Part shown: in pieces, positions 28,840 through 33,662 of the stretch | Layout of the letters: the number at the start of each line of letters is the position of its first letter | Numbering within the stretch: position 1 is the first letter of the stretch | NCBI GenBank assembly: GCA_009914755.4 | Contig: CP086569.2 | Span: 31,104,001 to 31,168,000, forward strand | Source of the DNA: the human T2T-CHM13v2.0 reference genome, Homo sapiens | Reading direction: 5' to 3' | DNA: 64,000 bases | Position numbers and translations under genes: made by a program | Notes under the pieces: model-generated | The model's database searches: none | What the model was told of the DNA's origin: nothing | What the model saw: the letters and a program-made list of their open reading frames with translations, nothing else

Positions 28840-29128
28840 TTTTTTTTTAGACAGAATCTTGTCCTGTTGCACAGGGTGGGGTACAATGGCGCCATCTTTG
28901 CTCACTGCAACTTCTGCCTCACGGGTCCAAGCGATTGTCCTCCCTCAGCCTCCCAGGTAGCTGGGACTACACTGGGACTACACCAGCTGCCACCATGCCT
29001 AGCTAATTTTTTGGATTTTTAGTAGTGACAGCCTTTCACTGCATTGGCCAGGATGATCTTGATCTCTTCACCTTGTGATCCCCTTGCCTTGGCCTCCAAA
29101 TTTGCTGGGATTACAGGCCTGAGCCAAG
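28840..29128 (-). mobile_element. Alu copy in U12 with a 5-bp internal deletion and the private changes 'cactgcattgg' and 'ggatgatcttg'
   Basis: Same Alu; poly-T at 28840. 'ctgggactacactgggactacacc' is shorter than in the other copies. Ends 'gagccaag' at 29128. Confidence 0.9.
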
Positions 29129-31244
29129 ATCCATATTTTTTAAATGAAAAAAAATTTCAAAGGTACTCTGCTTGGTACAATAATCAAATGTATAAACTGA
29201 GGAATAAAACATAAACATGAAACCTACTTATAACTGCATATGGAAAATACAGAGGATAATTTTTTAAATAACATATTTTGAAAGCCTTAACTAGTAATTT
29301 GAAGAGTTGGCATTTGAAAGGCCAGTATGAATATACCTTCAAAGCAGCAACACAGGTTCCCCATGAGAAAAAGCAGACACAGGGAAAATAAAAACACAAA
29401 GGTTCAATCTCTTCTGACCTTTGAAAGACACAGCACAGACAGTGGTCCTTAGGACGAAGAGCAGGAGACCCCTAATTCCGTCACCATGGCGATAGGGCAT
29501 AAACATTGCTGGGTGAGGGCACAATCCACATTGTGAGGTCCAACTGCTGCCAGGAAGACAGGAGTGCTTTTACATAGACCGAAAGGTCATTGAAGGCTCA
29601 GAGTTTTGTTTCAAGAACTGAATCCCAAGCCCACAGGTTATTAGGCTGCGCTTCTTAAAACAAGTTATGAGATGGGAAAAAGGGCACCCACAAACATACG
29701 TATACATTATGTATATAATAATATACAGTGTCATATATATAATATATATAACCTATGTATAATATTGTTTTACATCCTGCATCTTATGTTATATATATTG
29801 TATAAAATATAATAATTGATAATATATAAGTTTTATAAATATACAATATGACATATAGTATATATTATAATTTATGACATATATAATATATGTCATATAT
29901 CATATATAGAATATATTATACGGTTAATATACGTATTAAATATAAATTATACATTATATATATTATATATAATATATCTGTTATATATAATACCCATTAT
30001 GCATAATATATATATTATGTCTATGTTATATATAGTATAAAACAACATATAATATATAATTGTATATATAAAATGCGACATATAATATATATTATATTTT
30101 ATAACATATGTTTTATATATTATATATAATACGTTGTATGTATACTACCTATATTAAGTATATATTATATGACTATGTTATTAATTACATGTCACATGTG
30201 TTATATATTATATATTTTACATAGAATATACCGGTTACATACAATATATACCATGTTACCTATAATGTATAATTTATTACATGTAAAATAAAGAATGCAA
30301 TATATTATGTATAATTTATAATATACAATATTTGGAATGTGATATATATAACATATAATATATGATATATGATATACAGTATATGATATATAACATACAA
30401 TATATGATTCCTAATATATATGGTATACAATATATATTTTATGATATGTATTCTATATGTTTTATATTCTGTTATATATAACTATTTGAAATTATATATA
30501 ACTGTATAATATTTTATGTAAATATGTAATATAATATATATAACTATATAATATATTATATATAACTATATATTATGTTATATATACTTTCATAACATAA
30601 TTTACATAAAATATCATAATATAATATATATTATATTATTTCATATTACATAATATATATTACATATCACCCAATATAACTAACATACATAATATTATAA
30701 TATAGATTATATTGTGTTATATTAAATATCATATATATCATGTATCATATATTCTATAATATATATTACACATTATATAATATGTATGTTGTCTATTATG
30801 TGATATATATAACTATATATATAATTATATTTTTATACATATAACTAGATAAACATGTAATTCTACATATTTTCATTTATAATATGTAGAATTATATAAT
30901 CATATATAATTATTTATATTCTATAAAAAATTTTATCATTCTATAAATTATAATATATAAAAATTATAATATGTACTACAAATATATATATTATATATCA
31001 TATATGATATAGTACCTTTGTTATATATCATAATACATATAAATGTGTATTATGTTATCTATAATTATATAATTTCATATATAAGATGTATAATATGTAT
31101 CATATATTATATATGTTATGTAATATATATAGTATATATAAGATGACACAGGATAAATATTATATACTATGACATATAAAATATATGAGGTTATATGTTA
31201 CATATAAGGCATAGCACATAACATGTAATATATATCATATATAA
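28840..31244. repeat. Unit U12, 2405 bp, mostly subfamily I with private variants and a few subfamily-II-like states; its Alu carries a 5-bp deletion in the internal duplication
   Basis: Landmarks at 28840 and 31245. 'ctgggactacactgggactacacc' replaces 'ctgggactacaccacactgggactacacc'. Also 'cccacaggttatt' and 'tacaatatttggaatg' (II-like 'caatat'). Confidence 0.85.
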
Positions 31245-31538
31245 TTTTTTTTTAGACAGAATCTTGTCCTGTTGCACAGGGTGGGGTACAATGGCGCCAT
31301 CTTTGCTCACTGCAACTTCTGCCTCACGGGTCCAAGCGATTGTCCTCCCTCAGCCTCCCAGGTAGCTGGGACTACACCACACTGGGACTACACCAGCTGC
31401 CACCATGCCTAGCTAATTTTTTGGATTTTTAGTAGTGACAGCGTTTCACTGTATTGGCCAGGATGGTCTTGATCTCTTCACCTTGTGATCCCCTTGCCTT
31501 GGCCTCCAAATTTGCTGGGATTACAGGCCTGAGCCAAG
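31245..31538 (-). mobile_element. Alu copy in U13
   Basis: Same Alu; poly-T at 31245. Confidence 0.92.
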
Positions 31539-33662
31539 ATCCATATTTTTTAAATGAAAAAAAATTTCAAAGGTACTCTGCTTGGTACAATAATCAAATG
31601 TATAAACTGAGGAATAAAACATAACCATGAAACCTACTTATAACTGCATATGGAAAATACAGAGGATAATTTTTTAAATAACATATTTTGAAAGCCTTAA
31701 CTAGTAATTTGAAGAGTTGGCATTTGAAAGGCCAGTATGAATATACCTTCAAAGCAGCAACACAGGTTCCCCGTGAGAAAAAGCAAACTCAGGGAAAATA
31801 AAAACACAAAGGTTCAATCTCTTCTGACCTTTGAAAGACACAGCACAGACAGTGGTCCTTAGGACGAAGAGCAGGAGACCCCTAATTCCGTCACCATGGC
31901 GATAGGGCATAAACATTGCTGGGTGAGGGCACAATCCACATTGTGAGGTCCAACTGCTGCCAGGAAGACAGGAGTGCTTTTACATAGACCGAAAGGTCAT
32001 TGAAGGCTCAGAGTTTTGTTTCAAGAACTGAATCCCAAGCCCACACGTTATTAGGCTGCGCTTCTTAAAACAAGTTACGAGATGGGAAAAAGGGCACCCA
32101 CAAACATACGTATACATTATGTATATAATAATATACAGTATCATATATATAAGATATATAACCTATGTATAATATTGTTTTACATCCTGCATCTTATATT
32201 ATATATATTGTATAAAATATAATAATTGATAATATATGTTTTATATTTATACAATATGACATATAGTATATATTATAATTTATGACATATATAATATATG
32301 TTATATATCATATATAGAATATATTATACGGTTAATATATGTATTAAATATAAATTATAAATTATATATATTATATATAGTATATCTGCTATATATAATA
32401 CCCATTATGCATAATATATATATTATGTCTATGTTATATATAGTATAAAACAACACATAATAATATATAATTGTATATATAAAATGCGACATAAAATATA
32501 TATTATATTTTATGACATATGTAATATATATTATATATTATATATAATACGTTGTATGTATAATGCCTATATTAAATATATATTATAAGACTATGTTATT
32601 AATTACATGTCACATGTGTTATATATTATGTATTTTACATAGAATATACCGGTTACATACAATATATACTATGTTACCTACAATGTATAATTGATTACAT
32701 GTAAAATAAAGAATGCAATATATTATGTATAATTTATAATATACAATATGTGGAATATGATATATATAACATATATTATATGATATATGATATACAGTAT
32801 ATGATATATAACATACAATATATGATACCTAATATATATGGTATACAATATATATTTTATGATACGTATTCTCTATGTTTTATATTCTGTTATATAAAAC
32901 TATTTGAAATTATATATAACTGTATAATATTTTATGTAAATATGTAATATAATATATATAACTATATAATATATTATATATAACTATATATTATGTTATA
33001 TATACTTTTATAACACAATTTACATAAAATATCATAATATAATATATATTATATTATTTCATATTACATAATATATATTACATATCACCCAACATAAGTA
33101 ACATACATAATATTATAATATAGATTATATTATGATATACTAAATATCATATATATCATGTATCACATATTCTATAATATATATTACACATTATATAATA
33201 TGTATTTTGTCTATTATGTGATATATATAACTATATATATAATTATATTATTATACATATAACTAGATAAACATGTAATTCTACATATTTTCATTTATAA
33301 TATATAGAATTATATAATCATATATAATTATTTATATTCTATAAAAAATTATATCATTATATAAATTATAATATATAAAAATTATAATATGTACTACAAA
33401 TATATATATTATATATCATATATGATATAGTACCTTTGTTATATATCATAATACGTATAAATGTGTATTATGTTATCTATAATTATATAATTTCATATAT
33501 AAGATGTATAATATGTATCATATATTATATATGTTATGTAATATATATAGTATATATAAGATGACACAGGATAAATATTATATACTATGACATATAAAAT
33601 ATATGAGGTTATATGTTACATATAAGGCATAGCACATAACATGTAATATATATCATATATAA
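31245..33662. repeat. Unit U13, 2418 bp, a hybrid I-to-II unit; the downstream 19.35-kb-offset duplicated block starts inside its TA-block (~32250-32335)
   Basis: Landmarks at 31245 and 33663. The unique segment reads 'caaactcagggaaaataaaaacacaaagg' (a II state followed by an I state). The TA-block has II markers 'gatacctaat', 'cccaacataagtaac', 'ttttatgacatatg'. Confidence 0.85.

What the first reader, a model, noticed from the sequence alone, without database searches (positions are those of the whole stretch)
28840..33662. Boundary between two unit subfamilies, with hybrid units in between
Upstream units (subfamily I) and downstream units (subfamily II) differ at many fixed positions. Examples: 'caaacacaggg' versus 'caaactcaggg', 'aaaaacacaaagg' versus 'aaaaccacaaagg', 'gattcctaat' versus 'gatacctaat', 'cccaatataactaac' versus 'cccaatataagtaac', 'ttttataacatatg' versus 'ttttatgacatatg', and 'aaaaattttatcattctataaatt' versus 'aaaaattatatcattatataaatt'. 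U12 is mostly type I but is short (2405 bp), with a 5-bp Alu deletion and several II-like or private states. U13 starts I-like ('ccatgaaacc', 'aaaaacacaaagg'), acquires 'caaactcaggg', and is fully II-like in its TA-block. The subfamily junction is therefore graded across about two units, not a sharp insertion point.
Basis: seen in the sequence. Interest (0 to 1): 0.5.

Follow-up and report, generated by a model that had tools for sequence, protein, structure and literature searches.

The report
Seam between two DYZ2 satellite sub-blocks
The flagged stretch is an ordinary seam inside a human HSat1B/DYZ2 satellite array, where a young, near-uniform run of 2.4-kb units meets an older, more varied run that was recently copied as an eight-unit block.

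Summary
The window holds 26.5 tandem 2.42-kb units: an old reverse Alu, a GC-richer segment and an 86% AT block. Unit length, composition (24.6% GC, 1 CpG per 146 bp) and the ACATACG junction match published HSat1B/DYZ2.

Three points need correcting:
- **Few fixed differences.** Only 9 strictly fixed and 14 near-fixed sites of 2,423 columns separate the two sides.
- **"Subfamily II" is not homogeneous.** Its units differ about 2% from each other. They form an eight-unit repeat of 19.35 kb whose two copies differ by one substitution and one 2-bp indel over 12.3 kb. "Subfamily I" is a 99.5%-alike block with a two-unit 4.83-kb period, close to the genome-wide consensus.
- **U12 is not a hybrid.** It has the type I state at 17 of 18 diagnostic sites, and its other changes are private. 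U13 is intermediate (5 of 18 type I), but its states fit a simple tree. Its T538+A553 combination recurs in another contig.

The clearly chimeric unit is U21, the join of the 19.35-kb duplication (Fisher P = 4e-10).

The best explanation is unequal exchange amplifying two neighbouring domains, leaving unhomogenised relic units between them. This behaviour is already described for DYZ2. Interest is low.

The parts
1..26426 (.). Units U0 (partial) to U10: the homogenised 'type I' domain. Units of 2,411 bp (a) and 2,420 bp (b) alternate from U0 to U7, giving a 4,831-bp dimer period, followed by a-a-b (U8, U9, U10). Mean pairwise identity is 99.54%.
   Evidence: Unit starts and lengths. Mismatch matrix, including U4 = U6 with 0 differences. 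U0 is b-type. Identity summary. Nearest of all window units to the collapsed external consensus contigs, at 8-14 mismatches.
26427..28846 (.). U11: an orphan unit, b-like and 99.1% identical to the core. It has 9 private substitutions. It lacks four states (C192, G889, G1886, C2113) that U0-U10 and U12 share, carrying instead the genome-wide majority states.
28847..31251 (.). U12: a type I unit of 2,405 bp with about 17 private changes. These include the 5-bp ACACC deletion at 28969/28970 and two 3-bp deletions at about 30049 and 30111. It is not a hybrid.
28840..29131 (-). Old 5'-truncated Alu of U12. The Alu sense strand is the minus strand and the poly-T comes first on the plus strand. The same part begins every unit.
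   Evidence: Read directly. Sub-threshold matches to the Alu-derived mir-1268 family at 28944-29005 and 31349-31415, minus strand. This part is 52% GC.
31252..32329 (.). The 5' 1.08 kb of U13 (Alu, GC-richer segment and start of the TA block). It lies outside the near-perfect duplication and has an intermediate set of states: type I/majority at columns 10, 66 and 553, and type II at 538, 889 and 997. There are four substitutions absent from both type I and its counterpart unit U21, at 31773, 32078, 32153 and 32198.
32238..32329 (.). Interval in U13 homologous to the crossover interval of U21. This is the left edge of the near-identical 19.35-kb copy.
32330..51680 (.). Copy 1 of the eight-unit higher-order repeat (rest of U13, then U14-U20, then the 5' part of U21), 19,351 bp. 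Units within it are only 97.3-99.6% alike (mean 97.98%).
51681..64000 (.). Copy 2 of the higher-order repeat, running off the window end. It differs from 32330-44651 by one substitution (32503 T versus 51854 C) and one AA indel (41907).
   Evidence: U26 = U18 with 0 differences.
50601..53020 (.). U21: the chimeric junction unit of the 19.35-kb tandem duplication. Columns 1-988 are U17/U20-like and columns 1081-2423 are U13-like. The crossover lies in 51589-51680, 92 bp identical in both parents.
   Evidence: Trio analysis: 11 of 13 informative sites versus 44 of 44, Fisher P = 4e-10. Identical runs.
39282..42904 (.). Older nested duplication inside the higher-order repeat. The stretch from U16 column 780 to U17 column 1985 is near-identical to 46542-50164 (U19-U20), three units away.

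Best explanation
The window is a stretch of human HSat1B (DYZ2) satellite, most likely from Yq12. The flagged interval is the seam between two parts of one array that were amplified separately by out-of-register (unequal) homologous exchange.

On the left, a founder pair of units spread recently. This gave a near-consensus block that is 99.5% alike, with a 4.83-kb two-unit period and four local derived states.

On the right, older units that had drifted about 2% apart were recently duplicated together as a 19.35-kb, eight-unit block. The join of that duplication is preserved as the chimeric unit U21.

U11, U12 and the first ~1 kb of U13 belong to neither amplification. They were not homogenised, so each carries private changes.

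The type II diagnostic states are mostly ancestral, because copies about 10% diverged share them. The type I states are derived. U13 and U11 therefore look intermediate because they branched off part-way along the lineage leading to type I. They need not be products of I x II recombination.

**Shown:** unit structure, the two periodicities, the near-identity of the two copies, the U21 chimera, and the states of U11-U13.
**Inferred:** unequal sister-chromatid exchange as the process, the polarity of the states, and the Y-chromosome location.
For: **Family identity**
- Units are 2,405-2,422 bp, most often 2,420.
- Each has an Alu part, a GC-richer part and a TA block with 14% GC. Overall GC is 24.6% with 1 CpG per 146 bp.
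- ACATACG sits at the junction of the GC-richer and AT-rich parts.
- These match the published DYZ2 description: 2,420-bp consensus, 24% GC, 1 CpG per 150 bp, more than 85% AT region.
- Contaminant contigs in bacterial assemblies and metagenomes carry the repeat (18 and 24 contigs). Most of their aligned stretches are 99-99.5% identical to U4. The T2T-Y paper reports this kind of contamination for HSat1B.

**Two domains**
- Mismatch matrix: U14 = U22, U15 = U23, U16 = U24 and U17 = U25 with 0 substitutions. Neighbouring units differ by 30-66.
- The lag profile and exact comparison give 1 substitution and 1 indel in 12.3 kb.
- Core type I units are 99.54% alike.

**Duplication join**
- U21 switches parent once, Fisher P = 4e-10.

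**Relic units**
- U12 is type I at 17 of 18 sites, U11 at 14 of 18, U13 at 5 of 18 and U14-U20 at 0-1.
- The splits are nested.
- U13 adds only 6 four-gamete conflicts, all through column 827.

**Polarity**
- External copies 88-92% identical carry the type II states. The abundant 99% copies carry a U11-like profile.
- T538+A553, the U13 combination, occurs in two units of L022.

**Process**
- Published pedigree data show about one de novo gain or loss of one or two whole DYZ2 units (2,416-4,839 bp) per Y transmission.
- The same study reports frequent gene-conversion-like changes in Yq12.
- The Y papers attribute the array structure to unequal exchange, with homogenised middles and divergent peripheries.
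Against: - U13's Alu+unique part is closer to type I (0.47% non-core states) than in U14-U20 (0.8-1.9%). Its TA block is as diverged as theirs (2.24%). The nominal Fisher P is 0.03. An old crossover or conversion in U13 is therefore not excluded.
- U11 lies between units that share four derived states it lacks. Simple nearest-neighbour duplication does not predict this.
- There is much reticulation among units overall: the Hudson-Kaplan minimum number of recombination events is at least 9. A strictly tree-like history is therefore an idealisation.
- Polarity rests on contaminant contigs, some of which may be chimeric consensus assemblies. Two diverged copies carry type I states at columns 10 and 66.
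- Only 1.64 periods of the eight-unit repeat are visible.
- Chromosome of origin and read support could not be checked.
Confidence: 0.8

Rival explanations
1. U13 is a true hybrid made by an old unequal crossover or a gene-conversion tract. Its roughly 0.6-0.9 kb at the 5' end would come from a type I or majority-type unit, and its TA block from a type II unit.
For: - Type I states sit at columns 10, 66 and 553 in the 5' third, against 2 of 13 in the rest.
- The 5' divergence from the core is 0.47%, as in U11 and U12, but 2.24% in the TA block. Fisher P = 0.03.
- In bootstrap trees U13 is intermediate in Alu+unique and type II in TA1.
- Gene conversion is documented in Yq12.
Against: - Type I and type II states interleave (I, I, II at 538, I at 553, then II), so one crossover does not suffice.
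- The P value is not robust: 0.13 with the split at column 988, and it is one of nine units tested.
- U21, U17 and U20 also have low 5' divergence.
- All splits are tree-compatible.
- The T538+A553 combination exists elsewhere (L022), so it need not have formed at this seam.
- The 5' part carries four substitutions absent from both type I and U21, so any such event was old.
Confidence: 0.25
2. Both U12 and U13 are graded hybrids, so the junction was smeared over two units by repeated exchange between the two subfamilies.
For: U12 is short and atypical, at 99.1% identity to the core. It shares A at column 1498 with type II, and G at column 795 with U14/U22.
Against: - U12 is type I at 17 of 18 diagnostic sites.
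- About 17 of its deviations are private and absent from every downstream unit.
- It groups with type I in all four partitions.
- A1498 is also present in U10.
Confidence: 0.04
3. Assembly artefact. The I/II seam would be a false join of two distant array segments, or the perfect 19.35-kb copy would be an assembler duplication.
For: Satellite arrays are prone to misassembly. A 12.3-kb pair of copies at 99.98% identity is the kind of sequence assemblers can duplicate or collapse.
Against: - Unit phase is kept across the seam.
- U11, U12 and the 5' part of U13 each carry private markers within 7 kb. A false join would lack the long exact overlaps it needs there.
- The two copies do differ, by one substitution and one indel.
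- The join unit U21 has the structure expected of a real homologous exchange.
- Reads were not available, so this was not tested directly.
Confidence: 0.05

Closest known systems
DYZ2 / HSat1B arrays of human Yq12 (Hallast et al. 2023 preprint 10.1101/2022.12.01.518658; Rhie et al. 2023 preprint 10.1101/2022.12.01.518724)
   Same: - Composite unit of about 2.42 kb with an old Alu fragment, a region more than 85% AT and a GC-richer segment.
- 24% GC, 1 CpG per about 150 bp, and an ACATACG junction.
- Most units more than 98% alike.
- Homogenised stretches next to more divergent ones.
- Evolution by unequal exchange and iterative tandem duplication.
- Presence as a contaminant in bacterial assemblies.
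   Different: Nothing differs in kind. In the passages I searched, those papers describe divergence gradients and large duplications. They do not describe this particular two-unit/eight-unit periodicity or this seam. Location on Yq12, rather than on an acrocentric short arm, could not be verified here.
De novo DYZ2 unit gains and losses, and interlocus gene conversion, in a four-generation pedigree (Porubsky et al. 2025, PMC12240836)
   Same: De novo structural changes of 2,416-4,839 bp, that is one or two whole units, occur about once per Y transmission. 29% of new single-nucleotide changes match other copies. This is the process inferred here. The two-unit step matches the 4,831-bp dimer period of the left domain.
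   Different: The right-hand event here spans eight units (19.35 kb), larger than the steps observed in the pedigree. It is inferred from sequence, not observed in transmission.
Alpha-satellite higher-order repeat arrays with a homogenised core and divergent flanks (established centromere biology, from my own knowledge)
   Same: Copies one higher-order period apart are far more alike than neighbouring units. Chimeric units mark exchange points. Unhomogenised relic units lie at domain edges.
   Different: The base unit here is a 2.4-kb composite rather than a 171-bp monomer. There is no centromere function. Units within the repeat differ by only about 2%, against 20-40% for alpha-satellite monomers.

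Membership tests
HSat1B / DYZ2 satellite | Tandem units of about 2.4 kb (published consensus 2,420 bp) | tested here: met
   25 complete units of 2,405-2,422 bp, most often 2,420. Published lengths.
HSat1B / DYZ2 satellite | Three-part composite unit: old truncated Alu, region more than 85% AT, GC-richer segment | tested here: met
   The reverse Alu is read directly, and sub-threshold Alu-derived mir-1268 hits support it. The parts have 52%, 39% and 14% GC. Published description.
HSat1B / DYZ2 satellite | Overall 24% GC and about 1 CpG per 150 bp | tested here: met
   24.6% GC and 1 CpG per 146 bp, against the published values.
HSat1B / DYZ2 satellite | ACATACG at the junction of the GC-richer (HSATI) part and the AT-rich part | tested here: met
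   Present in 23 of 25 units. U15 and U23 have ACACACG. Feature described.
HSat1B / DYZ2 satellite | High identity to the published DYZ2 consensus sequence | not testable with these tools
   No human reference or DYZ2 consensus is available in the tools. Indirect support: contaminant contigs, several of them single-unit-sized (about 2.4 kb), in bacterial assemblies and metagenomes are 99-99.5% identical to U4. The T2T-Y paper attributes such contamination to HSat1B.
HSat1B / DYZ2 satellite | Location on Yq12, alternating with DYZ1 arrays (or on an acrocentric short arm) | not testable with these tools
   The whole 64-kb window is DYZ2-type units. No flank or DYZ1 is present.
Higher-order repeat organisation | Units one period apart are much more alike than adjacent units | tested here: met
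   Right domain: 99.98% identity at the 19.35-kb lag, against 97.98% between units. Left domain: U1/U3/U5/U7 and U2/U4/U6 differ by 0-7 substitutions, against 11-17 between a and b units.
Higher-order repeat organisation | Several complete periods in tandem | tested here: inconclusive
   Only 1.64 periods of the eight-unit repeat fit in the window (32330-64000). About four periods of the dimer are present.
Chimeric (hybrid) unit from unequal homologous exchange | A single switch of parental states along the unit | tested here: met
   Met for U21 only: 11 of 13 sites U20-like, then 44 of 44 U13-like, P = 4e-10.
   U12 is type I at 17 of 18 sites with no block of type II states. U13's states interleave, the number of runs is about that expected by chance (7 versus 8.2), and the 5'/3' contrast gives P = 0.10. 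A weak 5'/3' divergence contrast remains, P = 0.03 or 0.13.

The most novel reading that the evidence does not exclude
Two less ordinary readings remain possible.

1. DYZ2 arrays may contain stable multi-unit higher-order repeats (here a 2-mer and an 8-mer) separated by persistent seams of unhomogenised units. Such seams would act as barriers to homogenisation and could serve as landmarks for tracing Yq12 array history across Y haplogroups.
2. U13's 5' kilobase may be the footprint of an interlocus conversion from majority-type units.

Either would refine known satellite dynamics rather than add a new kind of element.
Probability: 0.3. Interest if true: 0.25.

Novelty: already known. Interest (0 to 1): 0.12.

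Why it matters
It matters little beyond bookkeeping. The window is a clean, base-resolved example of how a human heterochromatic satellite evolves. Local amplifications of different step size (two units and eight units) sit side by side. A preserved crossover join (U21) and unhomogenised relic units lie at and near the seam.

Seam-specific variants could be used as markers to anchor reads or to compare this array between Y chromosomes. Examples are the U12 5-bp deletion and the U13 G522/T538/A553 combination.

It does not reveal a new element, gene or mechanism.

Tried and rejected
- **Other assemblies.** Exact-protein look-ups with five short ORFs from U4, U12 and U13 found nothing on record. 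Whether the seam exists in other assemblies could therefore not be tested.
- **Viral contigs.** A scan for the conserved 27-mer gave 0 hits.
- **Rfam.** The search over 28700-33800 gave only sub-threshold matches to the Alu-derived mir-1268 family (34 bits against a gathering score of 83). There is no structured RNA.
- **Coding potential.** No ORF of 80 aa or more lies in the interval. A coding explanation is dismissed.
- **Polarising Alu sites.** I compared Alu-part sites with the Alu consensus from memory. This helped only for column 10, where the consensus G equals the type II state. At column 66 neither state matches the consensus. Polarity therefore rests on the external diverged copies.
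- **Single I x II crossover for U13.** Rejected, because type I and type II states interleave and the run count is as expected by chance.
- **Type II ancestry in U12.** Rejected.
- **First alignment attempt.** The first try at adding external fragments to the alignment timed out. It was rerun with a faster option.
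Full report
**What the window is**

Tandem Repeats Finder shows only AT-rich micro-periodicities recurring every ~2.4 kb. Anchoring on the start of the Alu part gives 26 unit starts spaced 2,405-2,422 bp apart.

Each unit has three parts:
- an old, 5'-truncated Alu in reverse orientation (~285 bp, 52% GC);
- a GC-richer segment (~575 bp, 39% GC);
- a TA block of ~1.56 kb (14% GC).

The window as a whole is 24.6% GC with one CpG per 146 bp. 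ACATACG lies at the junction of the GC-richer and AT-rich parts in 23 of 25 units.

These features match the published description of DYZ2/HSat1B. That description gives a 2,420-bp consensus including ACATACG, 24% GC and 1 CpG per 150 bp. It also gives an ancient AluY subunit, a region more than 85% AT and a GC-richer region.

A conserved 27-mer from the unit hits 18 contigs in bacterial genome assemblies and 24 metagenome contigs. Several are single-unit-sized contigs 99-99.5% identical to U4. One sits between runs of N in a Nostocoides japonicum scaffold. The T2T-Y paper reports exactly this kind of HSat1B contamination.

I conclude that the window is human HSat1B, probably the Y-linked DYZ2. 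The chromosome could not be verified. There is no ORF of 80 aa or more and no Rfam family above threshold in the interval.

**Checking the observation**

All the quoted motif pairs exist and switch at U12/U13 or U13/U14. In a MAFFT alignment of the 25 complete units (2,423 columns, 239 variable), 9 columns are strictly fixed between U1-U11 and U14-U25. Fourteen are fixed allowing one exception per side. So the boundary is real, but "many fixed positions" means about 0.5% of sites.

- CCATGAAACC is not diagnostic; it occurs in 19 units on both sides.
- U12's length and its 5-bp Alu deletion (ACACC, at 28969/28970) are confirmed.

The mismatch matrix shows that the downstream units are not one subfamily. 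They differ from each other by 30-66 substitutions, as much as they differ from type I (41-64). However, U14 = U22, U15 = U23, U16 = U24 and U17 = U25 with no substitution difference. U26 also equals U18.

An exact walk shows that 32330-44651 equals 51681-64000 except for one substitution (32503 T versus 51854 C) and one AA indel at 41907. The right side is therefore an eight-unit higher-order repeat with a period of 19,349-19,351 bp. Its units are 97.98% alike on average, while its copies are 99.98% alike.

It contains older nested duplications:
- 39282-42904 is near-identical to 46542-50164, three units away;
- U16 and U18 share their first 654 columns.

The left side (U0-U10) is 99.54% alike. 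Units of 2,411 bp and 2,420 bp alternate, giving a 4,831-bp dimer, from U0 to U7. Three a-type units in a row (U7-U9) then follow.

**Where the seam is, and which unit is chimeric**

U13 and its counterpart U21 differ at 10 substitutions plus a 2-bp indel. All lie in columns 1-988, apart from a single U21-private change at column 1256. From column 1091 onward the two units share about 27 variants found in no other unit.

In a trio test U21 is U20-like at 11 of 13 informative sites in columns 1-988. It is U13-like at 44 of 44 sites in columns 1081-2423 (Fisher P = 4e-10). U21 is therefore the recombinant join of the 19.35-kb tandem duplication. The exchange fell in a 92-bp stretch identical in both parents (51589-51680, homologous to 32238-32329). 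That is the signature of homologous unequal exchange. U13 is the original left-most unit.

**Are U12 and U13 hybrids?**

I used 17-18 leave-one-out diagnostic sites. At each, at least 9 of 10 core type I units carry one state and at least 60% of the other repeat units carry another. The number of type I states per unit is as follows:

| Unit | Type I states |
|---|---|
| U12 | 17 of 18 |
| U11 | 14 of 18 |
| U13 | 5 of 18 |
| U14-U20 | 0-1 of 17-18 |

U12's roughly 17 deviations from U1-U10 are private. Only column 795 is shared with any downstream unit. U12 groups with type I in bootstrap neighbour-joining trees of every partition (139/145, 106/129, 195/200 and 198/200).

U11 lies outside the flagged interval. 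It carries downstream-like states at columns 192, 889, 1886 and 2113.

U13 is intermediate. It has type I states at columns 10, 66, 553 and 1941 and type II states elsewhere. It is intermediate in the Alu+unique trees and type II in TA1.

Its type I and type II states interleave: 7 runs against 8.2 expected by chance. The 5'/3' contrast in those states gives P = 0.10.

Its 5' 860 columns are as close to the core (0.47% non-core states) as U11 and U12 are. Its TA block is as diverged as any type II unit (2.24%). This contrast is nominally significant (P = 0.03). It weakens to 0.13 with a split at column 988, and U13 is one of nine units examined.

The splits defined by the diagnostic sites are nested: {type II} | U13 | U11 | {core, U12}. 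Removing U13 from a four-gamete analysis removes only six conflicts, all through one site, column 827. Recombination is therefore not required to explain U13.

**Polarity from copies elsewhere**

The abundant external copies are 99-99.5% identical to the core. They carry G192, A889, A1886 and A2113, the profile of U11. Those four U11 states are therefore the genome-wide majority, and C192 and C2113 are local novelties of U0-U10 and U12.

External copies only 88-92% identical to any window unit carry the type II states at nearly all diagnostic sites. They are about equally distant from type I and type II units. The type II states are therefore most simply ancestral and the type I states derived. 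"Subfamily II" is then a grade of older units rather than a clade.

At the site pair 538/553, 15 bp apart, all four combinations exist in the family. U13's T538+A553 occurs in two consecutive units of an unrelated long contig, L022. This fits a path T-C (old) to T-A (U13, L022) to A-A (majority). It shows that U13's combination need not have been made at this seam.

**Mechanism**

Shown:
- two adjacent domains with different repeat periods and very different internal identity;
- a preserved homologous-exchange join (U21);
- three units at the seam that belong to neither amplification and carry private changes.

Inferred: repeated unequal sister-chromatid or intrachromatid exchange amplified a two-unit founder on the left and an eight-unit segment on the right. 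Homogenisation did not cross the seam.

This is the process proposed for DYZ2 in the Y-chromosome papers, with homogenised middles, divergent peripheries and iterative tandem duplications. Pedigree data support it directly. De novo changes of 2,416-4,839 bp, each removing or adding whole DYZ2 units, occur about once per Y transmission. In addition, 29% of new Yq12 single-nucleotide changes look like interlocus conversion.

As a rough inference, I applied the published Yq12 rate of 3.86e-7 per bp per generation:
- one difference in 12.3 kb puts the 19.35-kb duplication at about a hundred generations ago, with a very wide Poisson range;
- the 0.46% divergence of the core suggests thousands of generations;
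- the ~2% divergence among type II units suggests tens of thousands of generations.

The rate includes non-clock-like conversion, so these figures indicate order only.

**Rivals**

- An old crossover or conversion in U13 remains possible (about 0.25).
- A graded two-unit hybrid zone that includes U12 is essentially refuted.
- An assembly artefact cannot be tested without reads. It is unlikely, given the private markers in U11-U13, the preserved unit phase and the real differences between the two copies.

**Unexplained**

U11 lacks four derived states shared by the units on both of its sides. Simple neighbour duplication does not predict this.

**Verdict**

What is there is a normal sub-domain seam in a known human satellite, already covered in kind by the literature. 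Interest is low.

Noticed in passing
window 32330-64000: Eight-unit (19,349-19,351 bp) higher-order repeat of DYZ2-type units. Two copies differ by one substitution and one AA indel over 12.3 kb, while units within a copy differ by about 2%. Only 1.64 periods are visible.
   Followed up: yes
window 1-21594: The left domain alternates 2,411-bp (a) and 2,420-bp (b) units, a 4,831-bp dimer. The two types differ mainly by a 7-column indel at alignment columns 1278-1284 and about 10 sites in the first half of the TA block. The alternation breaks into three a-type units in a row at U7-U9. The b state matches the downstream units and the published 2,420-bp length.
   Followed up: partly
window 26427-28846 (U11): U11 carries the genome-wide majority states G192, A889, A1886 and A2113. 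The units on both sides of it (U0-U10 and U12) share the local derived states C192, G889, G1886 and C2113. This is not explained by simple neighbour duplication.
   Followed up: partly
window 39282-42904 and 46542-50164; also 38503-39156 and 43343-43996: Nested older duplications inside the eight-unit repeat. The stretch from U16 column 780 to U17 column 1985 is near-identical to the same stretch of U19-U20, three units away. The first 654 columns of U16 and U18 are identical.
   Followed up: partly
L006 5897-6920 (NZ_HF570958.1, Nostocoides japonicum T1-X7 scaffold): About 1 kb of this human satellite sits between two runs of N inside a 5.16-Mb bacterial scaffold. Seventeen other bacterial assemblies and 24 metagenome contigs also carry the repeat. 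This is human contamination, as already reported for HSat1B.
   Followed up: partly
L022 1-9975 (BNJU01004413.1); L028, L033, L036: Other contigs show their own transitions between unit types. In L022, four consecutive units fall from 98.3% to 98.0%, 96.8% and 90.9% identity to U4. L028, L033 and L036 each have a 99% unit directly next to a 90-93% unit.
   Followed up: no
alignment columns 538 and 553 (window 31789 and 31804 in U13): All four allele combinations of two sites 15 bp apart exist in the family: A-A majority, T-C in type II, T-A in U13 and L022, and A-C in L003. This implies recurrent mutation or very short conversion tracts. Some of the contigs may be chimeric consensus assemblies.
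   Followed up: partly
window 28944-29005 and 31349-31415, minus strand: Sub-threshold Rfam matches to mir-1268 (34 bits against a gathering score of 83) fall in the Alu part of each unit. They reflect the Alu origin of that miRNA family and are not a gene.
   Followed up: yes
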